Assembly: GCA_048886745.1 (NCBI GenBank)
Contig: JBHLKK010000002.1
Location: forward strand, 9,378-73,377
From: Candidatus Hodarchaeota archaeon
GTDB taxonomy: Archaea > Asgardarchaeota > Odinarchaeia > Odinarchaeales > JBHLKK01
Reading direction: 5' to 3'
Length of the DNA stretch: 64,000 bases
Shown: positions 1,119 through 27,973 of the stretch, one piece after another
Layout: each line of letters begins with the position of its first letter
Numbering within the stretch: position 1 is the stretch's first letter
Program-made: the position numbers and the translations under genes
Notes under the pieces: generated by a model
Told to the model about the DNA's origin: nothing
What the model saw: the letters and a program-made list of their open reading frames with translations, nothing else
Databases searched by the model: none

Positions 1119-1706
1119 TTGCTAATATCACCATTAATCTTAAATACTAGGAAAAAACTTTTCGCATCGGGGCCAAGTTGGGTGATGACAAGAAAGGAAG
1201 TTGGAACCATGGTTGAGCATGATGAAGAAGATGTTTTGCTTTTTCGTCAAGAATTGTGCACCGGCTGCCTTTACTGCTATTTGGCTTGCTCCTATGAGCA
1301 TTTTGGGGTTTTAAGCCTATCACTGTCTCATATTAAAATAATACCTGACGAGTCAAAACCTGGCTATTTCATTGGAATACATTGTGCACATTGTCATGAT
1401 CCAATATGTGAGGCCTCCTGTCCTCAAGACGCAATCACAAAAGATGAGAAAACTGGGTGGGTCAGCATCAACAAAATGAGATGTATTGGCTGTAAAACAT
1501 GCAATATAATGTGTCCCATTTCCATTCCTTGGCGTCACCCTGTTCAAAAGCTCTCACACAAATGTGATTTCTGTGATGGGGATCCCAAATGCGTTAAGTT
1601 CTGTCCAACTTCAGCCATTATCGTGACAACAAGACGCGAGGCCGAAGAATACGTTGAGAAGAAACTGGGAATCAAAGTACATGATTCTCGGAAAATCAAG
1701 AAATAA
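1119..1706 (+). CDS. Poly-ferredoxin-like protein with four 4Fe-4S CxxCxxCxxxCP motifs (HycB/HydN-type electron-transfer subunit)
   Basis: CTGCLYCYLACS, CAHCHDPICEASCP, CIGCKTCNIMCP and CDFCDGDPKCVKFCP. The true start may be internal (MTRKEV at 1182 or MVEHDE at 1206). Confidence 0.75.
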   Translation: MLISPLILNTRKKLFASGPSWVMTRKEVGTMVEHDEEDVLLFRQELCTGCLYCYLACSYEHFGVLSLSLSHIKIIPDESKPGYFIGIHCAHCHDPICEASCPQDAITKDEKTGWVSINKMRCIGCKTCNIMCPISIPWRHPVQKLSHKCDFCDGDPKCVKFCPTSAIIVTTRREAEEYVEKKLGIKVHDSRKIKK

Positions 1707-1723
1707 GGCGGGAAATAACCAAA

Positions 1724-2014
1724 ATGAGCAAGAAAACGGATAAGAAAAAGGTCGTTCCGCTCTATCCTCTTAGAAAAGATAAAGAGTTCATACCCAGTAC
1801 CTATCGCGCTGGATTTGAGAACATTCTGGGGTTAGCAATGAATAGAGAACTTCCTGAGTATTTCCTGGAAGAACGTGATATGCTGGGTCTTGAGGAAATC
1901 CTTGCAGCTTGGAAAAATGAGAAGGCACAAAAAGATATTCAGAAACTAGCAAAAGAGCTTGGTCTGGATAAAAAGGTAGGATTTGATTGGGAAAAGAAGA
2001 AAATCAAGTACTAA
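1724..2014 (+). CDS. Hypothetical small lysine-rich protein
   Basis: 96-aa ORF with no conflicting ORF, lying between the ferredoxin gene and the CCG-domain gene. No recognisable motif. Confidence 0.35.
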   Translation: MSKKTDKKKVVPLYPLRKDKEFIPSTYRAGFENILGLAMNRELPEYFLEERDMLGLEEILAAWKNEKAQKDIQKLAKELGLDKKVGFDWEKKKIKY

Positions 2015-2028
2015 GAGTGATCTCATTA

Positions 2029-2885
2029 TGACAAAAAGACTTGCATTTTTTCTTGGATGCGCTCTGCCCTCAGCACATCTATTTGCCGAAGCATCAACTA
2101 GATTAAGCATGGAAAATCTAGGTGTGGAAATAGTTGACCTTGAGGGCGCTACGTGCTGTCCTGATCCAGAAATCTCTCGGACTCTAGGTCCTGAACTATG
2201 GATTCGAATGGCTGCCAGAAATCTGGCTCTGGCTGAAGCTGCTGAAGCAGATATGTTTACTGTCTGCAATGGTTGTTGGGAAACTCTTAGCGATGCTAAG
2301 GAAATGCTTGCAGAAGATCAGAAGTTGAGAGAAGAGATTGGCCAGGATTTAGAAAAGCTTGGATTGCGTTATACAGGAAAATATAGCCTATATCATGCAA
2401 TAGAAGTATTCCATGATGTTGTTGGAATCGAGAAGATAAAATCCAGCATAAAGCGGACATTCAACGGTACAAAAATGGCACTTCAGCCCGGATGCCGTAT
2501 ATACAAAAGGTCAGAAAAAGAACTCCCTAAAAAGATGCAAGAATTGGTGGAAATTCTGGGTTGTGAAGTAGTAGAACTCCAATTTGATAGACTGTGCTGT
2601 GGGGTTCCTCTGATGTATACTGATGCTGAATACTCTCTGATTGAACGAACCAAGGTAAAACTTGATGAAATCAGATCGAAATCCTTACAGGGCATTGTTA
2701 CGTTCTGCCCTGCTTGCTACGACCGAATCGAGAAAGGTCAACTGGAATTGAATATGCGTGAAGAGAACTATAATATTCCTGTCTTCAGCTATTCTGAACT
2801 CTTGGCTTTCGCATTAGGTCATGAACCTGATGATTTCGGAGCTTATTTGCATAAACTAGACTATAGCAGGGTATTTTCGATGTGA
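2029..2885 (+). CDS. CCG-domain (cysteine-rich) protein of the HdrB/GlcF/SdhE family
   Basis: Two cysteine-rich repeats: (CCPDPE...CNGCW) and (CRIYK...LCCGVP...CPACYD). This fits the CXnCCGXmCXXC pattern of heterodisulfide-reductase subunit B-like domains. Start chosen at the ATG at 2029 (MTKRLAFFLGC, a typical HdrB N-terminus). The stop overlaps the GTG start of the next gene. Confidence 0.6.
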
Positions 2886-4330
2886 TAAATGTGGCTCTAG
2901 AAGGTCTTATCCCGTTATTCCTTATCCTATTGGGCGCAGCCCTAGTTATACCTGTGAAAACCATTTCCGACAAAGGCATGAAAGGCATGCTCTTAATGCT
3001 TTTCGCGGTAGCACTAGGTTTTAACACATGGTTATTATGGAATATTGTATTTGGGGCAGTCGATAGCTATTCGGTAAATGTATTTGTAGCGGATGGTGCC
3101 TCACTCTTTGTAACTGAGGTTATATTACTGATAGGCCTGATGTCCCTGATATATTCTATCAAATATATGGCCAAGACTCCACTCAAAACAGGAGTGTATT
3201 ATGGTATATTCGCTCTCTTTATTGCATCGATGATAGGAACAACTCTGGCTACCGAAGCAGTTGCTCTTTATGCGTTCCTGGAAACTATCACGGTGACTTC
3301 TGCTGTCTTGATTTTATATGGGCGGGGAGCCGCTTTGAGATCGACAATGATCTATCTTGTAATTGCTATTTTTGGTGCCATCCTTGTATTGGTGGGAATA
3401 TTCTTTATGTATACTTTCACTGGTACAACGCTGATTACGGGTGCAAGCGACTTGCCTTTTCTCACAGACTTTCAAAGGCTTTTGATATCTTCCTTCTTCT
3501 TCGTAGGTTTTGGAATAAAAGCTGGGGTGGTTCCTTTCGGATTACTGTGGCTTCCACCTGCACACAGTGATGCACCCACTCCAATAAGCGCAATCCTGTC
3601 CGGTATTATGATTAAAGTTGGAGCATTTGCCATGGTGAGGACAATCTATATATTCTATCCAGGGTTGGATATACTTATTCTTACGGTATCCAGCATAGGC
3701 ATAGCAAGTGTTTTGATTGGCGGTATTCTGGCCTTCTTCCAAAATGACATAAAGAGATTATTGGCGTTCAGTAGCATTTCCCAAATAGGATACATCATTC
3801 TCAGTTTTGGTCTGGGTACACTTGTAGGCATAGAAGGAGGTTTATTCCATCTGCTGAACCACGCCATCTTCAAGAGTCTCCTCTTTCTTACAGCAGGTAA
3901 TGTGATTTTACGCGTGAATACAAGGAACATACGAGAGATGGGAGGCCTATGGAATCGCATGCCAATAACATTATTTGTTTTTCTCATAGGTATGTTTTCA
4001 ATAATCGGTTGGATTCCGGGCTTCAGTGGGTATCAGAGCAAAACGATAATTCACCACGCTACCATAGCAGCGGGTTTTCCGATTTTTGGAATACTTGCGG
4101 ACATAGGAACTATAATAACGATCCTCTACTTGGGGCGAGCGATAATAGAGATATTCATAAAAAGGCCCAAGAATCCATCTCCCATAAAAAATGTCAAGGA
4201 GGCTCCTGTAACCATGCTAATTCCTACAATTATCCTCGCCTTGCTCTGTATTGTAATAGGTGTATTTCCAGGACTTGTATCCAGCATCCTGGAAATAGCT
4301 TCTAATGTTCTCGGGGGGTTGATTAGCTAA
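2882..4330 (+). CDS. NuoL/M/N-MrpD-type antiporter-like membrane subunit of a group 4 hydrogenase
   Basis: 482 aa, about 14 predicted TM helices. The conserved core (GFGIKAGVVPFGLLWLPPAHSDAPTPISAILSGIMIKVGAFAMVR) is typical of proton-pumping complex I / Mrp antiporter subunits. GTG start overlaps the upstream stop. Confidence 0.8.
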   Translation: MINVALEGLIPLFLILLGAALVIPVKTISDKGMKGMLLMLFAVALGFNTWLLWNIVFGAVDSYSVNVFVADGASLFVTEVILLIGLMSLIYSIKYMAKTPLKTGVYYGIFALFIASMIGTTLATEAVALYAFLETITVTSAVLILYGRGAALRSTMIYLVIAIFGAILVLVGIFFMYTFTGTTLITGASDLPFLTDFQRLLISSFFFVGFGIKAGVVPFGLLWLPPAHSDAPTPISAILSGIMIKVGAFAMVRTIYIFYPGLDILILTVSSIGIASVLIGGILAFFQNDIKRLLAFSSISQIGYIILSFGLGTLVGIEGGLFHLLNHAIFKSLLFLTAGNVILRVNTRNIREMGGLWNRMPITLFVFLIGMFSIIGWIPGFSGYQSKTIIHHATIAAGFPIFGILADIGTIITILYLGRAIIEIFIKRPKNPSPIKNVKEAPVTMLIPTIILALLCIVIGVFPGLVSSILEIASNVLGGLIS

Positions 4331-4669
4331 ATGAGTAATGAAGAGAAAGAACCCAACTTCAAAGGTAAGAAACTTAGCAAGATTTGGCAAAAGGATGTTC
4401 TTCCTCTGGCAGTGGCCATGATATTGCTTTCTTTAGGCGGTTTAGGATTTGTCTTTGCCAGAAACCTGATAGAGTTCTTTCTATTAGCGGAGCTTGTAGC
4501 TGTATCCGCTTTCTATATACTCTTCAGTGTATTGATTCCATCGCTATTCCCAAAACAAGTAAAGGTTGGAGATATATTTACCGGCGGTGTTTCCAAACCT
4601 CCATATATCCGTGATGATGAAATTCTCAGACCTGTCGTACCATTCCTGGAAGAAGAGGAAGAAGAATAG
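4331..4669 (+). CDS. Small membrane subunit, NuoK/MrpC/MbhG-like, with an acidic tail
   Basis: ARNLIEFFLLAELVAVSAFYILFSV resembles the NuoK core (RRNLI.ML..ELM.NA.N). The C-terminus ends in EEEEEE. Confidence 0.45.
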   Translation: MSNEEKEPNFKGKKLSKIWQKDVLPLAVAMILLSLGGLGFVFARNLIEFFLLAELVAVSAFYILFSVLIPSLFPKQVKVGDIFTGGVSKPPYIRDDEILRPVVPFLEEEEEE

Positions 4670-4677
4670 GGTGAATA

Positions 4678-6420
4678 ATGATGTCTTCAAAGAGAAAGGT
4701 AACTAAGAAGCGAAATATCGTGGCCAGAATCCTTAATTACCTAAAAAAAACACTTGGAGAAGATTATCTGGAAGAATATACAACTGGTCGAAACCGAGTA
4801 TTTGTAAGAACTACTGCTAATCATATCACAGATACAGCCAATTATATGTTAGAAAATGATGCCAGACTTGCCCATATAACAACGTCTGATTTGGGTACTT
4901 ATGGATTCGATGTTCTATACCATTATGCATTAGATCATATTGAGAAGAACCTACACATAGTTGTAAAGGTTAGGACTGAGAGGGAAAAACCTGAACTCCC
5001 ATCAGTAACCCCAATAACTTGGCAAGCATCCTTTGCGGAAAGAGAAAGCATGGATTTAATGGGGATGAAATTTCTAAATCACCCTGATCCAAGACGTCTC
5101 TTCCTGCCCTATGAATGGCCAGAGCCGGTAGAAGGGGGGAAGTTTGACAAGAGTCAAGTAGTTGGGAGAACCGATCTCTCGAAAGAAGAAATCCGTGAAA
5201 AGACTGGTAAATGGGTTCCACTATCCATTACTCCAAAGGATGCCAAGCTTACGCTAATACCAATCGGCCCTTATCATCCAATGCTTATTGAAAGTGAATA
5301 TTTCAGGCTCAAAGTAAATGGGGAAGAAGTGGTTGATGCTGACCTAAAGCTAGGCTTCAACCATAGGGGCGTAATGAAGTTAGCTGAGGAAAGAACATTT
5401 TGGAGAGATATATACTTAGTGGAGAGAACCTGTGGAATCTGCAACGCAACTCACTCGACAGCATATTGCAATGCTGTAGAGGAAATAATGGGTGTGGATC
5501 TCCCTGATAGAGCTAGGTACATCCGAACCTTAATACTGGAGCTCGAACGCCTTCATAGTCATCTCCTGTGGCTAGGAGTTGCAGGGGACCTTATAGGCTT
5601 CAAGACACTATTCATGTGGGCCTGGCGAGACCGTGAACATGTACTTGATGTTTTTGAAATCATTACAGGCGGTCGTGTATATCATTGCATGAATATCCTT
5701 GGTGGTGTTAAACACGATCTGAAAGAATCTTGGTATCCGAAGATTGAGAAAGCCATCAAAATTGCAAGAGATGCTACCCTGAAGTACGTCGAAATGGCCT
5801 ATGACCATCCCATTTTGAAAGCCAGAACCGAGGATCTCGGCGTGATGTCTACCGCTACTGTTAAAGAAGTGGGAGCGGTGGGTCCAACTGCAAGGGGAAG
5901 CAATTGGAAAATCGATGCCCGGTGGTCGGACCATCATGCAGCCTATGCTCCAGAATATACATCCTGGGAACCAATCGTTGAATCAGGTGGTGATGTATGG
6001 GCAAGGGTAGTAGTAAGACTGAAGGAACTTCTAGTTTCCGCAGAGCTCTGCGACCAAAGTCTGGACGCACTAAAGCGAACAGGTGGACCAATAAAATCGG
6101 AATTAGATGAGATTCCTGAGGGTGAAGGCATTGGTAAAACAGAAGCACCTAGAGGAGAATTATACTATTATGTGGCTTCAAACGGCACTCCAGTACCGCA
6201 GACGGTGAGAATCAGAACACCCAGCTATCGAAATAATGCATGTCTTTCGTTCATGGTTAAGGGATACACATTGGCTGATGCCCCGATTATCATTGGAAGC
6301 ATAGATCCTTGCTTCTCATGTACCGATAGAATGGTGGTCATAGAAGATGAGCGAACAGGAGAGATCAAGAGAGACCTACTAGGAAATCTTGCACAGAGGC
6401 TCAATAAGAAAAGGATGTGA
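4678..6420 (+). CDS. Group 4 [NiFe]-hydrogenase large subunit, fused NuoC-NuoD-like (HycE/EchE/MbhL type)
   Basis: N-terminal NuoC-like domain of about 150 aa, then RTCGICNATHSTAYC (RxCGxCxxxH N-terminal Ni ligand motif) and C-terminal DPCFSCTDR (DPCxxCxxR). All four Ni-binding cysteines are present. Confidence 0.85.
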   Translation: MMSSKRKVTKKRNIVARILNYLKKTLGEDYLEEYTTGRNRVFVRTTANHITDTANYMLENDARLAHITTSDLGTYGFDVLYHYALDHIEKNLHIVVKVRTEREKPELPSVTPITWQASFAERESMDLMGMKFLNHPDPRRLFLPYEWPEPVEGGKFDKSQVVGRTDLSKEEIREKTGKWVPLSITPKDAKLTLIPIGPYHPMLIESEYFRLKVNGEEVVDADLKLGFNHRGVMKLAEERTFWRDIYLVERTCGICNATHSTAYCNAVEEIMGVDLPDRARYIRTLILELERLHSHLLWLGVAGDLIGFKTLFMWAWRDREHVLDVFEIITGGRVYHCMNILGGVKHDLKESWYPKIEKAIKIARDATLKYVEMAYDHPILKARTEDLGVMSTATVKEVGAVGPTARGSNWKIDARWSDHHAAYAPEYTSWEPIVESGGDVWARVVVRLKELLVSAELCDQSLDALKRTGGPIKSELDEIPEGEGIGKTEAPRGELYYYVASNGTPVPQTVRIRTPSYRNNACLSFMVKGYTLADAPIIIGSIDPCFSCTDRMVVIEDERTGEIKRDLLGNLAQRLNKKRM

Positions 6421-7532
6421 AGATTGTGGTCTTAAAGATTCTATTAACCATTGCTGCGTGCATAATAATCCCCATAATTGCATTCCTCGGTGGAGTGCTA
6501 TGCTGGTTTGTCATTAGGAAGCTCACTGCAAGGATGCAGGCCAGACTGGGGCCTTTATTATCTGTCCCAAAACCACTAAGACCTGTGGTTGGTTCAACTC
6601 GTCTGCTACAACCTTTCTGGGATATTCTGAAGCTCTTCTATAAAGAGACTGTAGTACCTGCGACCGCCAGAAAGAGGCTATTTGTAACAATGCCTTATAT
6701 CGCCTTAATTTGCATTATTTTGGCGACCTGGTTTATTCCAATAGCTGGAGTTTCTCCCTTTGATCAATTCTCGTTCAGTCTATTGGTTGTTATGTATCTA
6801 GTCCTGGTGATTCCCTTAGCATTCGTTGTTGGGGGTGTCGCTAGTTCTTCTCCATGGGGTGTACTGGGAAGCTCAAGGGAGGTTAAGCTAGTTTTGGCTT
6901 ATGAAATCCCCTTTGTACTCGGTGTGTTTTCAGTAGCCCTGATGGCTGGTTTTCCAGCTGCTAGCGGTGGCATTTTACCTAGCCTTCCCGGCACACTCTC
7001 CCTCGCTGAATTGGTGGTATTCCAAACCACACATCAACTGAACTTCTTTGGAGTCGCATTGCCAGCATGGTTTATCATACTCAATCCATTCTCTGCAATT
7101 GCCGTCTTCCTTAGCTTGATTGGGAAAATCGGATTAAAACCTATGGATATTTCAGATGCTGACGTAGAAATAGTAGCCGGAGCTTACACCGAATATAGTG
7201 GGAGGTTGCTAGGGATTCACGAAATGGTCCGCACATTCCTCCTATTCTTGTCAACAACACTGTTTGTAGATCTCTTCCTTGGAGGGGGTGTGGTTCGTAT
7301 ATCATTCTTTGGAATACCCGCTTTGGTATGGTCGATAATCATCTATGCAATAATGACGACAGTAGTTCTTCTCTTCCTATCAATTGCAAATACAGCAAAT
7401 CCTAGGTATAGAATTGACCAAGCTTTCAAATGGTATCTGAAACTTCCTCTAGCACTGGCAATCATCGGGTTGGCTTGGACCTATTTCTTGGCTAGTCCCC
7501 TGATAAATATCCCAGGTATAAGCATAACTTAG
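6417..7532 (+). CDS. NuoH-like (HycD/EchB/MbhM) membrane subunit
   Basis: GPLLSVPKPLRPVVGSTRLLQPFWDILKLFYKE matches the GLLQP.AD.IKL..KE motif of subunit 1 (ND1/NuoH). Polytopic. Confidence 0.8.
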   Translation: MKIVVLKILLTIAACIIIPIIAFLGGVLCWFVIRKLTARMQARLGPLLSVPKPLRPVVGSTRLLQPFWDILKLFYKETVVPATARKRLFVTMPYIALICIILATWFIPIAGVSPFDQFSFSLLVVMYLVLVIPLAFVVGGVASSSPWGVLGSSREVKLVLAYEIPFVLGVFSVALMAGFPAASGGILPSLPGTLSLAELVVFQTTHQLNFFGVALPAWFIILNPFSAIAVFLSLIGKIGLKPMDISDADVEIVAGAYTEYSGRLLGIHEMVRTFLLFLSTTLFVDLFLGGGVVRISFFGIPALVWSIIIYAIMTTVVLLFLSIANTANPRYRIDQAFKWYLKLPLALAIIGLAWTYFLASPLINIPGISIT

Positions 7533-7544
7533 GAGAAATGAAAG

Positions 7545-8156
7545 ATGGTTAAAGGAAAACTCAAGCTTCTCAAAGAGGCAATCAAGAGCCTATTCAACCC
7601 AGTAACTATAGGGTATCCTGCTGGAGATCCTAATCTAGATTATACGGAACCTCACTTTGGGAAGGATGCTAAATATAGCATCGTAGCCGAAGAGCTTCGT
7701 GGAAAACATAAGTGGGATCCCGAGAAGTGCACCGGATGCGGAGCTTGTAGCTCTTGCTGTAGCAGCTCCTGTCTTCTTTATGAAGACAGAGAAGACGGAA
7801 AACGTCATCTCTGGGTCCACCTAGGTAAATGTATTTTCTGCAGTCGATGTGAATATATCTGTCCGGATGAGGCTCTTGATCTTACACCCGAATTCGAATT
7901 AAACTATGTAGGAGATAGAGAAAGCGAAGAATCATTTGTTAGACACGATGTAGAGCTTGAGGTATGTGGTAGTTGCGGACATTATGTTGGACCAAAACTA
8001 CAGGTTGAGAAGTACTCGCAAAGAGTTCTGGAAGAAATCCATTCTGCTGTAAAGGATGCTGTTAAGGAAGATCTAGACAAAACTTCTAAGCTTTGCATTG
8101 ATTGTAGAAGAAAGCTCGCCTATGAACTAAATCTTCATACGCGAAAGTACTATTGA
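7545..8156 (+). CDS. NuoI-like 2x[4Fe-4S] ferredoxin subunit (HycF/EchF type)
   Basis: CTGCGACSSCCSSSC and CIFCSRCEYICP cluster motifs. Position between the H-like and B-like subunits. Confidence 0.7.
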   Translation: MVKGKLKLLKEAIKSLFNPVTIGYPAGDPNLDYTEPHFGKDAKYSIVAEELRGKHKWDPEKCTGCGACSSCCSSSCLLYEDREDGKRHLWVHLGKCIFCSRCEYICPDEALDLTPEFELNYVGDRESEESFVRHDVELEVCGSCGHYVGPKLQVEKYSQRVLEEIHSAVKDAVKEDLDKTSKLCIDCRRKLAYELNLHTRKYY

Positions 8157-8611
8157 AGGGAAAAAAAATGGGCTTGAAACAAAAAGCAAGAATCTACTCT
8201 CCGTGGGTATTCCATGCCCACTGCGGCGGATGTAACGGTTGTGATATAGAGATTGCCGCTCTTTTTAATCCAAGATTTGACGTAGAGAGGTTTGGTATTC
8301 AGCTTAAGAACAATCCCCGTCACGCAGATATACTCGTTGTAGACGGCATACTTCCAAAGCAAACGGCATACTTTCTTAAGCGAGTATATAATCAGACACC
8401 TAATCCCAAGGCAGTGGTCGCGATAGGTGCTTGCGCGATTACCGGTGGAGTTTTTGCTGGTGATGAAGAAACCGAACCAAACTATTCTCAAGGAGGACCT
8501 GCAGATGAAATACTCCCTGTTGATGTTTACGTTCCCGGATGTCCGCCAAAACCCGAGGCAATAATAGAAGGTATTGTACGGGCGATAGTAGCCCTGAGCA
8601 AGAAGAAATAA
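8153..8611 (+). CDS. NuoB-like hydrogenase small subunit (HycG/EchC/MbhJ)
   Basis: CGGCNGCDIEI, GACAITGG and PGCPPKPE supply the four cysteines of the proximal [4Fe-4S] cluster of NuoB/20 kDa subunits. Confidence 0.85.
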   Translation: MKGKKMGLKQKARIYSPWVFHAHCGGCNGCDIEIAALFNPRFDVERFGIQLKNNPRHADILVVDGILPKQTAYFLKRVYNQTPNPKAVVAIGACAITGGVFAGDEETEPNYSQGGPADEILPVDVYVPGCPPKPEAIIEGIVRAIVALSKKK

Positions 8612-8736
8612 CCTTTCAATGATAGATACCGCCGCTCCCCAACACCTATCAAAAACCCGAATTCGTTAATCTTTTATCCCTTCATGTTAAGATTAAAGCA
8701 AAGTTTAAACAGTCGATTCAATAGGTGGCGTGAAAT

Positions 8737-9351
8737 ATGCGTCTAAATTTGGGGGAAGGCGAATATTTAATCAGACTTGCAAGAAAGAGCATAGAAACGT
8801 ATTTAGAAAGCGGAGAACGCCCGAAGGCTCCTAAAGAGGCCCCGAAGATACTTTTTGAAAAACGTGGCGTATTTGTCACTCTCCAAAGAATAGTTGAAGA
8901 TGAGAAGCGACTCAGAGGCTGTATAGGTTTTATCATTCCTCAATATTCACTACTAGATGCCACAATTCGCTCTGCCATAAGTGCTGCTGTGGATGATCCG
9001 AGATTTCCGCCTGTAGAATCCAGTGAATTGAAAAAACTCTCAATTGAAGTAAGTGTTCTGACACCTGCCCAACTTGTAAGAGTAGATACGCCCAGAGAAT
9101 ATGCATCGAAAATAAGGGTTGGTCGTGACGGTCTAATAGCGAAATTAGGATGGAAGACTGGAGTATTATTGCCCCAGGTACCCGTAGAATATGGCTGGGA
9201 TGAGGAGAAATTTATAAAACAAACATGTATTAAGGCTTTTTTGCCGCAAGACGCCTGGAATGAGGATGGATTTGAATTATATTCCTTTCAATCCCAGATC
9301 TTTGAGGAAAAATCTCCTGATGGCGAAGTAGAAGAACGCAGCATAAGTTAA
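8737..9351 (+). CDS. AMMECR1 domain protein
   Basis: GVFVTLQR...LRGCIGF is the AMMECR1 hallmark. 204 aa. Confidence 0.8.
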   Translation: MRLNLGEGEYLIRLARKSIETYLESGERPKAPKEAPKILFEKRGVFVTLQRIVEDEKRLRGCIGFIIPQYSLLDATIRSAISAAVDDPRFPPVESSELKKLSIEVSVLTPAQLVRVDTPREYASKIRVGRDGLIAKLGWKTGVLLPQVPVEYGWDEEKFIKQTCIKAFLPQDAWNEDGFELYSFQSQIFEEKSPDGEVEERSIS

Positions 9352-9410
9352 ATAAACTCCCCTGAAAAAACGGTTGAAAAATCTTAAATATTAGTGGTAG
9401 ATATTACTGT

Positions 9411-9776
9411 TTGCTTCGAGTCTCGTACATGTTAAAGAGGCGAGCAAAAATGAGTTTAATACTTGCTGTTCCTATTGCATTCATAGTTTGTCTGATAGTA
9501 GTAGGAATAATCTATATTTTTGGAGCAAGAATTGCTCCTCCAAGCAGGAAAGAGGGTGAAGCTGTTCTAACCTACGCGTGCGGGGAAGACATGGATCAAG
9601 AGAAAATCCAATTTAGAATTAATTGGTTATACTATGCAGTTTATTTCGTTATCTTTGACATCATTGCTTTTACCCTTTCTCTATCCATTCAACTTGGGGT
9701 TCTTGAATCGGCATTATTAGCAGTTGCCTATTCCTTTGTTTCGCTTGTAGCGATACTCGTGCTCCTGAGACGATAG
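9411..9776 (+). CDS. NuoA-like small membrane subunit (3 TM)
   Basis: LTYACGEDMD...FRINWLYYAVYFVIFDIIAFTLS matches the NuoA signature (Y-E/A-CG ... F-x3-YY-x4-F-[IV]-IFD-[IV]). Three hydrophobic segments. The real start is probably the internal Met at about 9450 (MSLILAV). Confidence 0.55.
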   Translation: MLRVSYMLKRRAKMSLILAVPIAFIVCLIVVGIIYIFGARIAPPSRKEGEAVLTYACGEDMDQEKIQFRINWLYYAVYFVIFDIIAFTLSLSIQLGVLESALLAVAYSFVSLVAILVLLRR

Positions 9777-9789
9777 AGGTGAAAAAAGA

Positions 9790-10242
9790 ATGGGATTGTT
9801 AAAAAGACTGGTCGATTGGTCTAGACGTAAATCACCTTGGCTACTCCACATGAACACAGGAAGCTGCAATTGTTGCGATATAGAAATCCTTGCTGCTCTG
9901 ATGCCTCGATTCGACATAGAACGATTTGGAGCCCTTCTTAAAGCCAGTCCGAGACATGCTGATGTATTGGTGTGCACAGGACCTGTTACTTTACAGCAGG
10001 CAAAGCGTTTGAAAAGAATCTATGAGCAAACACCGGCCCCGAAGTTTGTCATGGTAGTGGGCACATGTGGAAGTACGGGAGGAGTATTCAGAGGTTGCTA
10101 TCATGCTCATCAGGGAATCGATAATATCATTCCAGTTGATGTTTATGTTCCAGGCTGTCCTGCGAGACCTGAATCCATATTATTCGGGGCAGTAAGATTA
10201 CTTCAGAAATTAGAAGCGATTCAAAAGGGTGAAAGCGCATGA
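9790..10242 (+). CDS. NuoB-like hydrogenase small subunit, second paralog
   Basis: CNCCDIEI, GTCGSTGGVFRGCY and PGCPARPE. RBS GAGGTGA upstream. Confidence 0.85.
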   Translation: MGLLKRLVDWSRRKSPWLLHMNTGSCNCCDIEILAALMPRFDIERFGALLKASPRHADVLVCTGPVTLQQAKRLKRIYEQTPAPKFVMVVGTCGSTGGVFRGCYHAHQGIDNIIPVDVYVPGCPARPESILFGAVRLLQKLEAIQKGESA

Positions 10243-11972
10243 CTGTAGAAACTGAAATTAGTGAGGAAGTATTGTTTAAGCAATTCCCTGAAGAAGGTGA
10301 GATAGTACAATCGCTGCGTGAAGCGCTTGGTGATAAGTTTATTGACAGCAAGATTGTTAGAAAACGCAGAGTATATATTACAGTCGCAGAGGGAGCTCAT
10401 CGCGAGGCAGCTAGCAAGCTTAAGGCAATGGGTATATGGTATACTCCTACCATTGTTGGGTTGGATCAAAAAGAGAGATTCGAGATTCTCTTCCAGTTCT
10501 TCGATAAGAAGAGAAACCTACACATCACAATCAGAGCCCCGGTCGCGAAAGACGAACCAGAGCTGGAAACAATAACGGATCTCTTTCCAGGAACCGCACT
10601 CTATGAACGAGAAATACACGACATGTTTGGCATTGTTTTTAAAAACCATCCTAATTTGACAAAGTTCTTATTGGCTGATATTTGGCCTCCAGACGAATAT
10701 CCTCTGAGGAAAGACTGGCAGCCTACAGGCAAAAAGGTCAAGTCTCGAAGAAAGACATCCTTGGTTGCAGAAGGAGAATACCTAATTCAAGTTGGCCCTC
10801 AGATTCCGACATTGAAAGAACCTATGAACTTCGAGGTTATTGCAGACGGAGAAATTGTAGTTAATATAATTCCTCATCTAGAGTACAATCATCGTGGCAT
10901 AGAAAAAGCCATGGAGCAAAGAACCTTCACGCAAGGGATCTACCTAAGTGAACGGGTTTGCGGAATTTGCAGCCAGCCTCATGCATTCACCTACTGCAGT
11001 GCAGTTGAAAGACTATTGGACATTGACGTTCCAAGGCGGGGACAATACCTCAGGACAATGGTTTATGAAATGAATAGAATTCACAGCCACCTTTTGTGGA
11101 TTGGCGTTGCAGGTCACCTGATCGGTTGGGATACTCTATTTATGTATACATGGCGAGACCGTGAGGTTATTCTAGATCTTACAGAACTTGTAACCGGGGG
11201 ACGGTTAACAGGTGCAATAAACACCATTGGTGGAGCTAGAAGGGACATAAATAGTGATCAAATACATAAACTTCGTAAAGGACTAGATGTACTGGAAGAG
11301 CGAACCAAAGCATACAAGAAGATCGCGCTTAAAGAAGACACTCTGATAAAGAGGTGTCTGGGCGTAGGCATTATGAAACCAGAACTAGCCAGGGATTATG
11401 CTGCGGTTGGACCGACCATTAGAGGATCTGGAATAAGTGCTGATCTACGCTGGGATGATCCAGAACATGGATGCTATGATGAGATTACAGATGTTTTTGA
11501 TCCTATAACATCCGATTTATGCGATGTCGCTGGAAGATTGATTGTTCGTGCAGATGAGACACTCGAATCAGTTAACATGATTCGTTGGATCCTTGACCAT
11601 TTGCCAAGCGGACCGGTGCGAAAGAGAGTACCTAGGAGGATTCCGAGGGCTGAATCTGTGGGAAGGACTGAAGCTCCTCGCGGAGAAGTATATTATTATA
11701 TGATGTCTAATAACACAGACAAGCCAGAACGGGTAAAAATCAAGACGCCAACGCTTGCAAATATTCCTGCGTTCATCGAATCCACAAAGGGACTATACAT
11801 CGCAGACTTCGTGATCAACTTTGGCAGTATTGATCCCTGCATTGCGTGTACGTGTAGGACAACAATTACCGATATAAGCCACCCAAACAAGCCAAAACAT
11901 AGCGTTATGTCACATGAAGAATTAAGGCAGTATGGGATTAAATGGTACAAAGAAAGGAAATGGAGGAAGTAA
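10239..11972 (+). CDS. Group 4 [NiFe]-hydrogenase large subunit, fused NuoC-NuoD-like, second paralog
   Basis: RVCGICSQPHAFTYC near the N-terminal part of the D domain and DPCIACTCR at the C-terminus. Both Ni-ligand CxxC pairs are retained. 4-bp overlap with the upstream gene. Confidence 0.85.
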   Translation: MTVETEISEEVLFKQFPEEGEIVQSLREALGDKFIDSKIVRKRRVYITVAEGAHREAASKLKAMGIWYTPTIVGLDQKERFEILFQFFDKKRNLHITIRAPVAKDEPELETITDLFPGTALYEREIHDMFGIVFKNHPNLTKFLLADIWPPDEYPLRKDWQPTGKKVKSRRKTSLVAEGEYLIQVGPQIPTLKEPMNFEVIADGEIVVNIIPHLEYNHRGIEKAMEQRTFTQGIYLSERVCGICSQPHAFTYCSAVERLLDIDVPRRGQYLRTMVYEMNRIHSHLLWIGVAGHLIGWDTLFMYTWRDREVILDLTELVTGGRLTGAINTIGGARRDINSDQIHKLRKGLDVLEERTKAYKKIALKEDTLIKRCLGVGIMKPELARDYAAVGPTIRGSGISADLRWDDPEHGCYDEITDVFDPITSDLCDVAGRLIVRADETLESVNMIRWILDHLPSGPVRKRVPRRIPRAESVGRTEAPRGEVYYYMMSNNTDKPERVKIKTPTLANIPAFIESTKGLYIADFVINFGSIDPCIACTCRTTITDISHPNKPKHSVMSHEELRQYGIKWYKERKWRK

Positions 11973-11975
11973 GAT

Positions 11976-13022
11976 ATGGTGTTGGAAGCAATTCTCGATA
12001 TACTTCAAATCATACTTTTCCCAGGAATATTCTTCTGTCTGACTTTAGCACTTTTCTATTCATGGATAGACAGAAAATACCATGCCGATCTTCAGAACAG
12101 AATGGGACCGACTTATACAGGGTGGCGAGGGATCCTTCAGCCTTTTGCAGATTTCATAAAACTCTTAGCCAAAGAAGATATCACCCCGGCAGCAGCCGAT
12201 AGGAGGAGTTTCGCCGCTGTACCAATCATAATGCTGGCAGTTCCTCTGACTGCTCTTCTGCTTATACCGATCAGCAGCGTGTCTGGAATAATCACTTTTC
12301 CTGGTGATATCGTGTTTCTGATGTTCTTATCCACAATAATTGCGATTCTTATCTTTCTTGCTGGATGGTTTTCAACAAATGTATTCAGCGACATTGGAGC
12401 CACAAGAGCTGTCCTGCAACTCATTGGATATGAGATACCTTTTATGATTGCAGTGTTCTCTCCGGCTATTCTGGCCGGTTCACTTACGCTTGCACAGGTT
12501 GTTCAGTATCAAGCCGCCAACGGTATGATGCTTTTCCAATTCCCAGCCTTATTTCGAAGCATTCCGATGTGGATTGCCTTTGGCATTTACATGATAGCTT
12601 TGATGGCTGAACTTGAAAAGATCCCGTTAGACATTCCGGAAGCTGAAACTGAAATCGTTGCTGGATGGCAAACTGAATACTCAGGTAAGAAGTTTGCATT
12701 TCTGGTTCTATCAAATGATCTTCACATGCTTTTCGGTGCAGGCTTAGCTGTAACGCTATTCCTGGGTGGACCCTTTGGAATCGAGAAGTTGCCAGGACTA
12801 GCCTGGCTGGATGCCTTTATTTCGACAACACCGGTGGTTAGAGAAATCTGGTATACAACTTGGTTTATATTAAAGACTGCAATAATTGTGCTGATAATTT
12901 CAAACATCAGAACTCTGTTTGCACGATATAGAGTTGATCAGATGGTTCGTGGCTCGTGGAAATATCTGGCACCGATTGCCTTGGTTCAAGTGATGTTAAT
13001 TCAACTAGTAAGTCTGATCTAA
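11976..13022 (+). CDS. NuoH-like membrane subunit, second paralog
   Basis: RMGPTYTGWRGILQPFADFIKLLAKED is the NuoH motif. Polytopic. Confidence 0.8.
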   Translation: MVLEAILDILQIILFPGIFFCLTLALFYSWIDRKYHADLQNRMGPTYTGWRGILQPFADFIKLLAKEDITPAAADRRSFAAVPIIMLAVPLTALLLIPISSVSGIITFPGDIVFLMFLSTIIAILIFLAGWFSTNVFSDIGATRAVLQLIGYEIPFMIAVFSPAILAGSLTLAQVVQYQAANGMMLFQFPALFRSIPMWIAFGIYMIALMAELEKIPLDIPEAETEIVAGWQTEYSGKKFAFLVLSNDLHMLFGAGLAVTLFLGGPFGIEKLPGLAWLDAFISTTPVVREIWYTTWFILKTAIIVLIISNIRTLFARYRVDQMVRGSWKYLAPIALVQVMLIQLVSLI

Positions 13023-13026
13023 GAAG

Positions 13027-13419
13027 GTGATGTTAATGCCTTTCCCTGGAGCTATGCAAGGTGAACTGTTAAAACATCTTACTAAGAAGAGGGCAACTGT
13101 GCTCTATCCATTTGAGAAGTTGGAGTTAGCCGAAGCGTATAGGGGTCGATGGTCTCATAATATGGCCAAATGTACTGGTTGCGGTCTCTGTGCGAAGGAC
13201 TGCCCGAGTGAGGCCATACAGCTAGTCCAAACCGATATAACTCCTGGTGGCAGGTATCCTGTTTGCTATTTGAGTCGATGTATGTTCTGTGCTCAATGTG
13301 AAGATACTTGTCCGACAGGCGCTATCCAACTCACAAGTGAATATGAGCTTGCTGATTATCAGAAAAGGATTATCGATAGTGCCGAACCTGAAGGATTTAG
13401 ATACGAAAAAGGTAAATAA
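13027..13419 (+). CDS. NuoI-like 2x[4Fe-4S] ferredoxin subunit, second paralog
   Basis: CTGCGLCAKDCP and CMFCAQCEDTCP. Confidence 0.75.
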   Translation: MMLMPFPGAMQGELLKHLTKKRATVLYPFEKLELAEAYRGRWSHNMAKCTGCGLCAKDCPSEAIQLVQTDITPGGRYPVCYLSRCMFCAQCEDTCPTGAIQLTSEYELADYQKRIIDSAEPEGFRYEKGK

Positions 13420-13612: not shown

Positions 13613-13834
13613 ATGGCTACAAAGTTAACGAATGCTCGTGTCGAGAGAATAATGAGGGAGACAGGGAAGAAGGAAGGGATTCCTCGTGTGTCTGCGGATG
13701 CAGTTGTTTCGATGAACGATGCTGCGACAAAGTTCATCCGTAGCGTCTGTGCAACTGCAGCCGGTTTAGCAAAGAAGGACCGACGGAAAACCGTCCTGCC
13801 ACGAGACATTGATCAAGCTGTAAAACAAGCATAA
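13613..13834 (+). CDS. Archaeal histone-fold protein
   Basis: 73 aa. RVERIMRE...ISVDAVV..NDAATKFIRSVCATAAGLAKKDRRKTVLPRDIDQAVK has the three-helix histone-fold layout (HMf/CBF-NFY type) with the conserved RKT..DI loop. An oligo-T tract follows the stop. Confidence 0.7.
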   Translation: MATKLTNARVERIMRETGKKEGIPRVSADAVVSMNDAATKFIRSVCATAAGLAKKDRRKTVLPRDIDQAVKQA

Positions 13835-17042: not shown

Positions 17043-17046
17043 CTTA

Positions 17047-18270: not shown

Positions 18271-18554
18271 TCCTTAATCATGGTTATTGCTTCAACAGGA
18301 CATTCCTCTGCACAAACACCGCACCCTTTGCAGAAATCATAATCAAAAGAGATCTTTTCTCCATCCCACTTCACCGCTATATCTGGACAGTAAAGCCAAC
18401 ATAACATACAAGTCGTACATTTTTCATGATCTATTATTGGTTTGAATGTACGCCAATCACCTGTGTGATACTCTTCACTAGATTTCCAGGCAACTCCACC
18501 AATGGGTATTTCTTTCCAGCTCTTCTTCTCAGTCACTTGCTTTTGCCTCCTCAT
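18267..18554 (-). CDS. porD: POR delta subunit (2x[4Fe-4S] ferredoxin)
   Basis: CTTCMLCWLYCPD and CKGCGVCAEECP. 4-bp overlap with porA. Confidence 0.8.
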   Translation of the reverse strand: MRRQKQVTEKKSWKEIPIGGVAWKSSEEYHTGDWRTFKPIIDHEKCTTCMLCWLYCPDIAVKWDGEKISFDYDFCKGCGVCAEECPVEAITMIKE

Positions 18555-27924: not shown

Positions 27925-27973
27925 CGGAACACTAAGATAGATTGTAATTGACACATTATTTGATTCGGGGGAT

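What the first reader, a model, noticed from the sequence alone, without database searches (positions are those of the whole stretch)
2029..13419. Two paralogous group-4 [NiFe]-hydrogenase / complex-I-like modules side by side, separated only by an AMMECR1 gene
Module 1 (2029-8611) has, in order: a CCG-domain HdrB-like protein, a NuoL/M-like antiporter subunit, a NuoK-like subunit, a fused NuoCD large subunit, NuoH-like, NuoI-like and NuoB-like subunits. This is an Mbh/Hyf-type energy-converting hydrogenase with an ion-translocating arm. Module 2 (9411-13419) is a stripped-down NuoA-B-CD-H-I set with no antiporter-like subunit. Both large subunits keep the RxCGxC and DPCxxCxxR Ni-ligand cysteines (RTCGIC/DPCFSC and RVCGIC/DPCIAC). 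Both NuoB-like subunits keep the four proximal-cluster cysteines. So both look like real hydrogenases rather than cysteine-less complex I, Fpo or Ehr relics. Two distinct respiratory-type hydrogenases in tandem, one apparently unable to pump through an antiporter arm, suggests functional specialisation, for example ferredoxin-dependent H2 evolution versus a second electron partner. The ferredoxin-like gene at 1119-1706 and the CCG protein hint at coupling to a thiol/disulfide or heterodisulfide-type acceptor.
Basis: partly seen in the sequence, partly recalled or inferred. Interest (0 to 1): 0.7.

Follow-up and report, generated by a model that had tools for sequence, protein, structure and literature searches.

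The report
Two Asgard membrane hydrogenase gene clusters
An Asgard archaeon carries two different, already described kinds of membrane-bound nickel-iron hydrogenase gene cluster side by side, and the second, which looked stripped of its ion pump, most likely has its pump subunits encoded elsewhere in the genome.

Summary
Bases 1119-8611 and 9411-13419 hold two tightly packed gene sets for group-4 [NiFe]-hydrogenases, separated by an AMMECR1 gene. Both large subunits keep all four Ni-ligand cysteines at the HycE/MbhL positions. Both NuoB-like subunits keep their cluster cysteines.

The two sets are not recent duplicates (large subunits 35% identical). They belong to two different subfamilies.

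Set 1 is an "Ehd-like", HdrB-coupled hydrogenase. It has a formate-hydrogenlyase-like core, one antiporter subunit, a four-cluster ferredoxin, a small protein resembling the C-terminal tail of HdrC, and a full HdrB with all ten cysteines.

Set 2 (NuoA-B-CD-H-I) belongs to the complex-I-like hydrogenases of Asgard archaea. Its nearest relatives sit in operons that continue with NuoJ-x-K-L-M-N. Odinarchaeia with the same tandem carry a J-x-K-L-M-N operon about 6 kb from set 1. The MAG closest to the window that could be checked has an unlinked NuoL/NuoM pair. So "unable to pump" is probably an artefact of viewing one window.

Both kinds are already published (Kohtz 2022; Valentin-Alvarado 2024; Appler 2024 preprint). 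The conserved tandem and the split operon are modest additions: a new member of known kinds, of moderate-to-low interest.

The parts
1119..1706 (+). Four-cluster [4Fe-4S] ferredoxin-like electron-transfer subunit (HycB/AorA/WOR5-FeS type). The real start is probably the ATG at 1185 or 1209.
   Evidence: Pfam Fer4_11 1e-15. Four CxxCxxCxxxC-type motifs are read directly in the translation. Best PDB matches are 8c0z_C 8e-27, 6x6u_B and HycB 7z0s_B 4e-14. Conserved at the head of set 1 in Odin and H2M.186 loci.
1724..2014 (+). 96-aa soluble protein resembling the C-terminal, HdrB-binding tail of HdrC
   Evidence: No Pfam hit. A family profile (A6) hits residues ~110-183 of HdrC chains 8rvu_c, 8rvv_C and 5odc_C at E 1e-5. 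It always sits between the ferredoxin and HdrB genes.
2028..2885 (+). HdrB-like subunit with two CCG domains (disulfide reductase catalytic subunit)
   Evidence: Pfam CCG 4.6e-23, two stretches. Full-length match to HdrB 5odc_B at 1e-50. Cysteines C11, C43, C44, C80, C83 and C156, C190, C191, C227, C230 are all present. TIGR03288 scores 215 bits, below its 345-bit cut-off.
2882..4330 (+). Antiporter-like subunit (NuoM/N / MrpD / HycC class, 482 aa). It is the only one in the window.
   Evidence: Pfam Proton_antipo_M 1.7e-58. tblastn with Odin and H2M.186 L/M/N proteins hits only this gene in the window. At 482 aa it has no room for a NuoL-type lateral helix (inference from length).
4331..4669 (+). 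112-aa two-helix membrane protein with conserved glutamates E48 and E54; possibly a truncated NuoK/MbhG-like subunit
   Evidence: No Pfam hit and no PDB hit with the family profile. hhalign against Asgard NuoK gives only E 0.008, probability 5%, over 'ARNLIEFFLLAEL' versus 'KRNLIKILIGIEL'. Conserved next to the antiporter in all set-1 loci, but placed before the antiporter in Odin.
4678..6420 (+). Large subunit 1: fused NuoC-NuoD-like [NiFe] catalytic subunit (HycE-like), with a 29-aa C-terminal extension after DPCFSCTDR
   Evidence: Pfam. HycE 7z0s_E at 7e-86 and MbhL at 2e-79, with the Cys pairs aligned. Relatives are 50-62% identical in Odinarchaeia, Bathyarchaeia and Methanomethylicia.
6417..7532 (+). 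NuoH/HycD-like membrane subunit of set 1
   Evidence: Pfam NADHdh 7e-58, 197 bits.
7545..8156 (+). NuoI/HycF-like 2x[4Fe-4S] subunit of set 1 (203 aa, with an extra C-terminal CxxC...CxxC)
   Evidence: Pfam Fer4 families. Best PDB match is HycF 7z0s_F at 2e-14.
8153..8611 (+). NuoB/HycG-like small subunit of set 1 (a likely start is the ATG at 8168)
   Evidence: Pfam Oxidored_q6 2e-34. C27, C30, C94 and C130 are read from the sequence.
8737..9351 (+). AMMECR1-domain gene. It is a spacer between the two sets and probably not part of either enzyme.
   Evidence: Pfam AMMECR1 8e-54. Present between the sets in H2M.186 and H2M.176 but replaced by unrelated genes in Odin loci.
9411..9776 (+). NuoA-like three-helix membrane subunit (alternative starts at ATG 9429 and 9450)
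   Evidence: Pfam Oxidored_q4 5.6e-8. 53-87% identical in relatives.
9790..10242 (+). NuoB-like small subunit of set 2
   Evidence: Pfam Oxidored_q6 1e-29. MbhJ 6cfw_J at 1.8e-50, with SCNCCDIE aligned to SCNGCDIE.
10239..11972 (+). Large subunit 2: fused NuoC-NuoD-like [NiFe] catalytic subunit, with a conserved 37-aa HycE-like C-terminal extension after DPCIACTCR
   Evidence: Pfam. HycE at 1e-86, with the Cys pairs and the extension aligned. Narrow clade: 2 Promethearchaeota plus 3 Odin species representatives. Groups with the Asgardarchaeia large subunit P0138 in a neighbour-joining tree.
11976..13022 (+). NuoH-like membrane subunit of set 2. It is closer to canonical NuoH than the set-1 copy.
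   Evidence: Pfam NADHdh 4e-86, 289 bits, against 197 bits for the set-1 copy.
13027..13419 (+). NuoI-like 2x[4Fe-4S] subunit of set 2 (130 aa, canonical size)
   Evidence: Pfam Fer4 families.
16077..19104 (-). Four-subunit 2-oxoacid:ferredoxin oxidoreductase. This is context: a likely source of reduced ferredoxin.
   Evidence: Pfam TPP_enzyme_C, POR_N + PFOR_II, Fer4 and POR. The same neighbours follow set 2 in Odin loci.

Best explanation
The region encodes two different energy-converting [NiFe]-hydrogenases of an Asgard archaeon. They are not a duplicated pair.

Set 1 (1119-8611) looks like a complete, self-contained "Ehd-like" enzyme. Its core matches formate hydrogenlyase: a large subunit, HycD-like, HycF-like and HycG-like subunits, one antiporter-like subunit and a small two-helix subunit. 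Where E. coli FHL carries formate dehydrogenase, this enzyme carries a four-cluster ferredoxin, an HdrC-tail-like adaptor and HdrB. It therefore most likely connects H2/H+ at the Ni-Fe site to a disulfide/dithiol couple at HdrB through a chain of Fe-S clusters, coupled to ion translocation. The thermodynamically easy direction is H2 oxidation with disulfide reduction.

Set 2 (9411-13419) is the catalytic head plus NuoH/NuoA hinge of the complex-I-like hydrogenase found in Asgard archaea. Its membrane arm (split NuoJ, NuoK, a NuoL with a lateral helix, and NuoM/N) is encoded in another operon outside this window. It most likely oxidises reduced ferredoxin, for example from the neighbouring 2-oxoacid:ferredoxin oxidoreductase, makes H2 and pumps ions.

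Shown here: gene content, motifs, homologies, and synteny in relatives. Inferred: subunit assembly, direction of electron flow, identity of the disulfide, and pumping.
For: Gene content and domains.

Catalytic residues: Ni ligands aligned to HycE and MbhL. Small-subunit cysteines.

Two subfamilies: the large subunits are 35% identical. Each falls in its own large clade in a neighbour-joining tree of 241 sequences.

Set 1:
- HdrB match at 1e-50 with all ten Cys.
- HdrC-tail match at 1e-5.
- Ferredoxin of HycB/AorA type, and HycF as best match for the NuoI-like subunit.
- The same 9-gene set occurs in Odinarchaeia and in loci L011 and L012, found through large-subunit hits of 48-52% identity among mostly Bathyarchaeia-labelled relatives.
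- Kohtz et al. 2022 (PMC9723716) describe Ehd/Ehd-like HdrB-interacting group-4 hydrogenases with exactly this core.

Set 2:
- Nearest outgroup operon is B-C-D-H-I-J-x-K-L-M-N-A.
- Baldrarchaeia have a split J-x-K-L-M / A-B-C-D-H-I arrangement.
- An Odin-type contig shows J-x-K(-L-M-N), set 1 and set 2 within about 25 kb.
- H2M.186 has a NuoL-like protein (710-737 aa, with a lateral-helix-like tail) plus NuoM. Its NuoL is 60% identical to the Odin NuoL, the same divergence as large subunit 2.
- The C-terminal extension of large subunit 2 is shared with the Asgardarchaeia, Baldrarchaeia and Jordarchaeaceae enzymes.
- NuoH2 scores much closer to canonical NuoH than NuoH1 does.

Literature: complex-I-like, Ni-cysteine-retaining hydrogenases of Asgard archaea are described in PMC11291895 and bioRxiv 10.1101/2024.07.04.601786. 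The latter also places two new subgroups (4l, 4q) in Odinarchaeia, with an Hdr module.

Context: the POR genes lie next door.
Against: - No NuoJ/K/L/M/N genes other than 2882-4330 are in the 64-kb window, so the membrane arm of set 2 is inferred from relatives and not seen in this genome.
- In H2M.186 only L and M were found together. J, x and K of that lineage were not located.
- The five-gene A-B-CD-H-I operon without pump genes is itself conserved in six loci. That would also fit a stand-alone enzyme. An antiporter-less HdrB-linked hydrogenase (Drh of Methanocellales) is a published precedent.
- Assignment of the Odin J-x-K-L-M-N operon to set 2 rather than set 1 rests on comparative gene order only.
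- No reference sequences of the published subgroups (Ehd, 4l, 4q) were available for a direct tree.
- HdrB scores below the TIGR03288 equivalog cut-off, and the organism's disulfide is unknown.
- No maturation genes (hyp, hycI) are in the window.
Confidence: 0.68

Rival explanations
1. One reading: set 2 is a self-contained, minimal five-subunit hydrogenase (NuoA-B-CD-H-I) with no antiporter arm. It either does not pump or moves ions through NuoH alone, and it is specialised for a different electron partner than set 1.
For: The operon ends after NuoI in the window and in all six related loci. T-rich sequence and a 650-bp gap follow it in the window. No other antiporter gene lies within 64 kb. 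A published precedent exists for an antiporter-less membrane hydrogenase, Drh of Methanocellales.
Against: - NuoA is present. In complex I it packs against NuoH, J and K (established structure knowledge).
- The closest outgroup operons carry J-x-K-L-M-N in line or adjacent.
- Genomes with the tandem do encode orthologous L/M(/N) and J/K genes.
- Set 1 already has its own antiporter, so the extra membrane-arm operon otherwise lacks a catalytic partner.
Confidence: 0.2
2. The two sets, together with the separate membrane-arm genes, work as one unit. Either they form a physical supercomplex sharing membrane subunits, or they form an obligate two-step chain. In the chain, ferredoxin electrons become H2 at set 2 and are recaptured at set 1 to reduce a disulfide, giving two coupling sites.
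For: The tandem is conserved between Odinarchaeia and the H2M lineage, whose orthologues are only about 60% identical. This holds even though the spacer genes differ. In Odin the J-x-K-L-M-N operon, GcvH, set 1 and set 2 form one island. Baldrarchaeia place HdrB/HdrC-like, GcvH and lipoate ligase genes between the two halves of the complex-I-like cluster. Appler et al. report an Hdr domain on these Asgard complexes.
Against: Wider synteny (POR, NadA/NadC) is also conserved here, so adjacency may simply be inherited gene order. TATA-like AT-rich boxes lie before 1119 and 9411, and gaps of 125 and about 60 bp flank AMMECR1. These suggest separate transcription units (inference only). Set-1-type clusters occur alone in Bathyarchaeia. 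There is no direct evidence of interaction.
Confidence: 0.1
3. One of the two large subunits no longer makes or uses H2. This would resemble Mbx/MBS or complex I, where the site reduces sulfur compounds or quinone.
For: NCBIfam's best-scoring models are NuoD and FpoD, though all fall below their cut-offs. Complex-I-like gene order in set 2.
Against: All four Ni-ligand cysteines are kept in both proteins. They are invariant in the 8-sequence clade of large subunit 2 and present in all full-length relatives inspected. Both keep a HycE-type C-terminal extension, which is the substrate of the Ni-dependent maturation protease. The Pfam NiFeSe_Hases N-terminal segment matches in both.
Confidence: 0.03

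Closest known systems
Ehd / 'Ehd-like' HdrB-interacting group-4 [NiFe]-hydrogenases (proposed by Borrel et al. 2019 for Methanomethylicia; extended by Kohtz et al. 2022, PMC9723716, to Culexarchaeia, Bathyarchaeia, Nezhaarchaeia and Methanocellales)
   Same: Set 1 has the same core: a group-4 large and small subunit, NuoH-like and NuoI-like subunits, one antiporter subunit, and HdrB with an HdrC-type Fe-S partner in one cluster. Relatives of large subunit 1 come from Bathyarchaeia and Methanomethylicia.
   Different: The host is a non-methanogenic Asgard archaeon, so CoM-S-S-CoB is an unlikely substrate. The HdrC role appears split into a four-cluster HycB-type ferredoxin plus a separate 96-aa HdrC-tail-like protein. 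No direct tree with published Ehd sequences was possible.
E. coli formate hydrogenlyase-1 (HycBCDEFG + FdhH; group 4a; PDB 7z0s)
   Same: Best solved-structure match for both large subunits and for the set-1 NuoI-like subunit. Shared features are a fused NuoC/NuoD large subunit with a cleavable C-terminal extension, a HycB-type polyferredoxin, and a single antiporter-like subunit.
   Different: There is no formate dehydrogenase. HdrB occupies the donor/acceptor position. The antiporter is 482 aa, accompanied by a separate two-helix protein. Identity to HycE is only about 36-38% over the D domain.
Complex-I-like group-4 [NiFe]-hydrogenases of Asgard archaea (Freyarchaeia/Atabeyarchaeia, Valentin-Alvarado et al. 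2024, PMC11291895; subgroups 4j-4q of Appler et al. 2024, bioRxiv 10.1101/2024.07.04.601786)
   Same: Set 2 has nuo-like gene order with NuoA, a Ni-cysteine large subunit, a canonical-size NuoI and a NuoH close to the complex I family. Its large subunit groups with Asgardarchaeia, Baldrarchaeia and Jordarchaeaceae enzymes and shares their C-terminal extension.
   Different: Here NuoC and NuoD are fused, and the membrane-arm genes are not in the operon. They lie about 6 kb from set 1 (about 19 kb from set 2) in Odinarchaeia and are unlinked in H2M.186. They were not seen for the window's own genome.
Pyrococcus furiosus membrane-bound hydrogenase Mbh (group 4d; PDB 6cfw)
   Same: Second-best structural relative of both large subunits and best relative of NuoB2. 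It is a ferredoxin-dependent, H2-evolving, ion-pumping enzyme, which is the proposed working mode of set 2.
   Different: No MbhA-C (MrpEFG-type) or MbhD/E/F/I genes are in the window. Gene order and NuoA differ. MbhL is unfused.
Respiratory complex I / Fpo
   Same: Homologous NuoA, B, C, D, H and I subunits and gene order in set 2.
   Different: NuoD of complex I and Fpo lacks the Ni ligands. Both large subunits here keep them. There are no NuoEFG/FpoF genes, and all NCBIfam NuoD/FpoD scores are below their cut-offs.

Membership tests
Group 4 (energy-converting) [NiFe]-hydrogenase | Large subunit with L1 (CGxC) and L2 (DPCxxC) Ni-Fe ligand cysteines at the conserved positions | tested here: met
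   Both large subunits align their four Cys to HycE and MbhL. The Cys are invariant in the 8-sequence clade of large subunit 2.
Group 4 (energy-converting) [NiFe]-hydrogenase | NuoB-like small subunit with four Cys for one [4Fe-4S] cluster, plus NuoI-like and NuoH-like subunits | tested here: met
   Pfam Oxidored_q6, Fer4 and NADHdh in both sets. Cys positions.
Group 4 (energy-converting) [NiFe]-hydrogenase | At least one antiporter-like (NuoL/M/N/MrpD) subunit | tested here: inconclusive
   Met for set 1 (2882-4330). For set 2 there is none in the operon or the window, but orthologous genes exist elsewhere in related genomes.
Ehd-like HdrB-interacting hydrogenases | HdrB and an HdrC-type Fe-S protein co-located with the hydrogenase core and one antiporter gene | tested here: met
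   Genes 1119-8611 are tightly packed (gaps of 17 bp or less, or overlaps). HdrB match at 1e-50. HdrC-tail match at 1e-5.
Ehd-like HdrB-interacting hydrogenases | Large subunit falls in the published Ehd/Ehd-like clade | not testable with these tools
   No published Ehd reference sequences were available. Indirect support only: relatives at 42-62% identity are labelled Bathyarchaeia or Methanomethylicia. Two loci found through such relatives carry the same gene set (L011, L012).
HdrB (CoB-CoM heterodisulfide reductase subunit B) | Two CCG domains with ten Cys binding two non-cubane [4Fe-4S] clusters | tested here: met
   All ten Cys are present and aligned to 5odc_B.
HdrB (CoB-CoM heterodisulfide reductase subunit B) | Reaches the equivalog score of TIGR03288, and the organism makes CoM/CoB | tested here: not met
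   215 bits against a cut-off of 345. CoM/CoB biosynthesis was not examined. The protein is HdrB-like, with its substrate unknown.
Formate hydrogenlyase (group 4a) | Formate dehydrogenase H partner attached through HycB | tested here: not met
   No molybdopterin or FdhF-type gene lies in or beside the cluster.
Mbh (group 4d, Mrp-linked) | Mrp-type module (MbhA-I homologues) in the cluster | tested here: not met
   The membrane genes present are one antiporter and one two-helix protein in set 1, and NuoH and NuoA in set 2.
Complex-I-like Asgard group-4 hydrogenase | Ni-cysteine large subunit inside a nuo-type gene set including NuoA, H and I, related to the Asgard enzymes | tested here: met
   Gene order A-B-CD-H-I. 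Groups with the Asgardarchaeia operon large subunit in a neighbour-joining tree. Shared C-terminal extension.
Complex-I-like Asgard group-4 hydrogenase | Membrane arm with split NuoJ, NuoK, a NuoL carrying a lateral helix, and further antiporter subunits in the same genome | tested here: inconclusive
   Present in an Odin-type genome with the same tandem. L and M are present in H2M.186. The rest of the window's own genome is not available.
Respiratory complex I / Fpo | NuoD without Ni ligands; a quinone or methanophenazine site; an NADH or F420H2 input module | tested here: not met
   Ni ligands are retained. No NuoEFG/FpoF genes in the window. NCBIfam NuoD and FpoD scores are below their cut-offs.

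The most novel reading that the evidence does not exclude
The conserved island (a separate J-x-K-L-M-N operon, the HdrB-coupled hydrogenase, and the complex-I-like hydrogenase head) might encode one integrated respiratory unit. This could be a two-headed supercomplex sharing a membrane arm. Or it could be an obligate internal H2 relay in which ferredoxin electrons pass through H2 to a protein-bound disulfide such as lipoyl-GcvH, with ion pumping at both steps. That would be a ferredoxin:disulfide respiratory chain in non-methanogenic Asgard archaea.
Probability: 0.1. Interest if true: 0.65.

Novelty: new member of a known kind. Interest (0 to 1): 0.3.

Why it matters
Membrane hydrogenases of Asgard archaea bear on hydrogen-based models of how the eukaryotic cell arose, and on how complex I evolved from hydrogenases. 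This window gives a clean example of the two Asgard enzyme types lying next to each other.

It also gives a caution. A complex-I-like hydrogenase can look "pump-less" when its membrane arm is encoded in a different operon. Subunit counts taken from a single gene cluster, including inputs to multimer modelling, can therefore understate the complex.

Two small additions came out of the analysis. The tandem is conserved between Odinarchaeia and a second Asgard lineage. In the HdrB-coupled enzyme, the HdrC role seems to be divided between a HycB-type polyferredoxin and a separate short HdrC-tail-like protein.

Tried and rejected
- **Small membrane protein (4331-4669), PDB.** A profile search of the solved-structure sequences found nothing, even at E 10.
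- **Small membrane protein, profile comparisons.** hhalign against Asgard NuoJ-like and 'x' proteins gave nothing. Against NuoK it gave only a weak match, and a larger alignment did not improve it. The NuoK label therefore stays tentative.
- **NCBIfam naming.** No large-subunit, NuoH or HdrB model reached its curated cut-off.
- **Frame error.** My first synteny table used 2029 as the HdrB start, so that query was out of frame and its identities were too low. It was redone from 2028.
- **Promoter/terminator scanner.** Not used, because it models bacterial sigma-70 sites and this is an archaeon. AT-rich TATA-like boxes and oligo-T runs were read by eye only.
- **Borrel et al. 2019.** The original Ehd proposal is not held in the library, so Ehd is cited through Kohtz et al. 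2022.
- **Left edge of the window (1-448).** It was translated in six frames to look for a truncated NuoJ/K or MJ0043-like gene. No open frame was found.
- **Recent tandem duplication.** Rejected, on 35% large-subunit identity and separate clades.
- **Cysteine-less relic.** Rejected.
- **Structure prediction.** Not run. Only single chains can be modelled here, and the open questions concern subunit assembly.

Full report
**What is there.**

The + strand from 1119 to 13419 carries fifteen tightly packed genes. Within 1119-8611 the genes overlap or are at most 17 bp apart. A 125-bp gap follows, then an AMMECR1 gene (8737-9351), then a gap of about 60 bp. Five more genes from 9411 to 13419 are 3-13 bp apart or overlapping. 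A 650-bp T-rich spacer with a histone gene comes after them.

The one exception is the 112-aa protein at 4331-4669, which has no hit. The CCG gene starts at ATG 2028, one base before the stated 2029.

**The host.**

The surrounding window is typical of an Asgard archaeon. It has several Ras/Arf-family GTPases (one fused to an M20 peptidase, one with a weak longin match), a weak Roadblock match, a histone, and H4MPT-dependent C1 enzymes. The closest public records are "Promethearchaeota archaeon" MAGs H2M.176 and H2M.186 (93% and 86% identity for large subunit 2).

**Are they real hydrogenases?**

Yes, as far as sequence can show.
- Both large subunits are fused NuoC-NuoD proteins. Their best solved relatives are E. 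coli HycE (about 1e-86) and P. furiosus MbhL.
- The cysteine pairs RTCGIC/DPCFSC (C252, C255, C545, C548) and RVCGIC/DPCIAC (C241, C244, C534, C537) sit in the same alignment columns as the Ni-Fe ligands of HycE and MbhL.
- Both proteins continue past the DPCxxCxxR site with a HycE-like extension of 29 and 37 residues. In HycE this extension is the part removed by the maturation protease (established knowledge).
- The extension of large subunit 2 is conserved in its clade and in related Asgard enzymes.
- Both NuoB-like proteins keep CxxC...C...C.

**Not a duplication.**

The two sets share 35% (large subunit), 51% (NuoB), 30% (NuoH) and 41% over 75 residues (NuoI). In a neighbour-joining tree of 241 large subunits, each falls in its own clade of about 120 sequences. 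This tree is rough, with no bootstrap and only HycE and MbhL as named references.

**Set 1.**

- The CCG protein is a full-length HdrB homologue (1e-50 to 5odc_B) with all ten cysteines of the two non-cubane clusters. It scores below the methanogen HdrB equivalog cut-off.
- The gene at 1119-1706 encodes a four-cluster ferredoxin of the HycB/AorA/WOR5 type.
- The 96-aa ORF between them has no Pfam hit. A profile of its family matches the C-terminal 70 residues of HdrC at E 1e-5.
- The NuoI-like protein is HycF-like.
- The antiporter-like protein (482 aa) shows the usual charged residues when read by eye: a Glu in 'FLE', and Lys residues in 'GIKAGVVPF', 'IMIKVGAF' and 'HAIFKSLLF'. This comparison rests on my own knowledge of the family.
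- The two-helix protein has two conserved glutamates. It matches NuoK helices 1-2 only weakly (E 0.008, probability 5%).
- The same nine genes, in nearly the same order, occur in Odinarchaeia and in two further loci, L011 and L012. Those loci were found through large-subunit relatives of 48-52% identity.

This matches the "Ehd / Ehd-like HdrB-interacting group-4 hydrogenases" of Kohtz et al. 2022. It also matches the Hdr-bearing Mbh-like complexes that Appler et al. report for Odinarchaeia and other deep Asgard classes.

By analogy with formate hydrogenlyase, electrons would run between HdrB and the Ni-Fe site through the ferredoxin, the HycF-like subunit and the HycG-like subunit, with the membrane subunits coupling this to ion movement. 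Direction and substrate are inferred. H2 to disulfide is exergonic for known disulfides. In Odin a GcvH gene lies nearby, echoing the lipoyl-protein idea of Kohtz et al.

**Set 2.**

The large subunit belongs to a narrow clade.
- A scan of one genome per species found only two Promethearchaeota and three Odinarchaeia. The scan used two clade-specific peptide patterns.
- In the protein search, identity drops from 56-63% straight to about 46%.

The next relatives are unfused large subunits of Asgardarchaeia, Baldrarchaeia and Jordarchaeaceae (53-55% over the D part).
- The Asgardarchaeia gene sits in one operon: NuoB-C-D-H-I-J-x-K-L(713 aa)-M-N-A.
- In Baldrarchaeia, A-B-C-D-H-I is separated from J-x-K-L-M by HdrB/HdrC-like, GcvH and lipoate-ligase genes.

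A search with the Baldr NuoL found NuoL homologues labelled Odinarchaeia and Promethearchaeota.
- On one Odin-type contig, J-x-K-L-M-N lies 5.6 kb upstream of the set-1 ferredoxin gene and is divergently oriented. Set 2 follows set 1 on the same contig.
- In H2M.186, the MAG carrying an 84-92% identical copy of the tandem, another contig has a NuoL-like gene with a long C-terminal amphipathic tail, followed by a NuoM-like gene. Its NuoL is 60% identical to the Odin NuoL. That is the same divergence as large subunit 2 (61-63%).

Set 1 already has its own antiporter, and set-1-type clusters occur without any J-K-L-M-N genes. The extra membrane arm is therefore most simply assigned to set 2.

Set 2 also has NuoA and a NuoH much closer to the complex I family (289 against 197 bits).

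I therefore read set 2 as the head and hinge of a split complex-I-like hydrogenase. This kind is described for Freyarchaeia/Atabeyarchaeia and for Asgard classes generally, and is predicted there to oxidise ferredoxin and evolve H2 while pumping. A four-subunit 2-oxoacid:ferredoxin oxidoreductase lies 2.7 kb downstream here, and next to set 2 in Odin.

**What remains open.**

- The window itself contains no membrane-arm genes.
- J, x and K were not located in the H2M lineage.
- Assembly is inferred from gene order in relatives.
- The five-gene operon without pump genes is conserved, so a stand-alone enzyme cannot be excluded (I give it about 0.2).

**The tandem.**

Set 1 followed by set 2 is conserved in every related locus with enough flanking sequence:
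- two Promethearchaeota MAGs, one of them (H2M.176) only from the AMMECR1 gene onward;
- Odinarchaeia MAGs;
- JGI and ENA metagenome contigs of Odin type.

Orthologues in these loci are only about 60% identical and the spacer genes differ. AMMECR1 is the spacer only in the H2M lineage, so it is unlikely to be a subunit. Wider synteny is conserved too (POR, NadA/NadC), so adjacency by itself does not prove functional coupling.

**Novelty and score.**

Both enzyme kinds, their presence in Asgard archaea, the retained Ni ligands and the Hdr link are already in the literature. What this analysis adds is modest:
- the tandem is conserved across two Asgard lineages;
- the complex-I-like gene set is split, with the arm elsewhere;
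- the HdrC function looks divided.

I rate it a new member of known kinds, interest 0.3. The most novel reading still open, an integrated two-hydrogenase unit, gets about 0.1.

Noticed in passing
window 13613-13834 (+): Small archaeal histone gene (CBFD_NFYB_HMF, 1.5e-15) in the spacer after set 2.
   Followed up: partly
window 14074-14634, 14648-15631, 15750-16022 (+): A Ras-family GTPase is followed by a 327-aa protein with no solid Pfam hit. A 90-aa ORF then repeats the larger protein's N-terminal CxxC...PH..VVY.D segment. The GTPase plus 327-aa pair is 87% and 92% identical in MAG H2M.176 (locus L005).
   Followed up: partly
window 23477-25315 (+) and 22354-23199 (-): A Ras-family GTPase fused to an M20 peptidase (612 aa), and an Arf-like GTPase with a weak N-terminal longin match. 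Both are eukaryote-like signature proteins typical of Asgard archaea.
   Followed up: no
window 26971-28372 (+): A 317-aa protein with a long Pro/Ala-rich linker and no Pfam hit, followed by a weak Roadblock/LC7 match (132 aa).
   Followed up: no
window 40634-41752 (-): A cysteine-rich 372-aa protein with a weak, sub-threshold Dynactin_p62 match (E 0.003).
   Followed up: no
window 36600-37787 (-): Two adjacent DUF1922 zinc-ribbon proteins (239 and 147 aa) that look like paralogues.
   Followed up: no
window 42507-44889 and 56390-57301: H4MPT-dependent C1 enzymes: a Fae-Hps fusion, Mch and Ftr. A histidine-utilisation set lies at 52869-60211 (urocanase, histidine ammonia-lyase, an amidohydrolase).
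   Followed up: partly
L011 13257-15876: In one set-1-type cluster the ferredoxin, small protein and HdrB genes lie after the hydrogenase genes. They are followed by a GlcD-like FAD oxidase and an Fe-S + CCG (HdrD/GlcF-like) protein, hinting at a 2-hydroxyacid-linked variant.
   Followed up: no
L014 5388-8512 and L020 3948-4373: GcvH lies next to the hydrogenase clusters in Baldrarchaeia and in an Odin-type contig. In Baldrarchaeia it is joined by a lipoate-protein ligase and HdrB/HdrC-like genes. No GcvH is present in the window.
   Followed up: partly
L018 1247-2664 and L019 939-2356: Other Promethearchaeota MAGs split the nuo-like set differently. L018 has NuoA-B-C on one strand facing J-x-K-L-M-N on the other. 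In L019 only NuoA and NuoC were called on that strand. NuoD, H and I are not in either locus.
   Followed up: no
relatives of large subunit 1 (P0087-P0108): A subgroup, in which the named members are labelled Methanomethylicaceae, has DQC instead of DPC in the C-terminal Ni-ligand motif.
   Followed up: no
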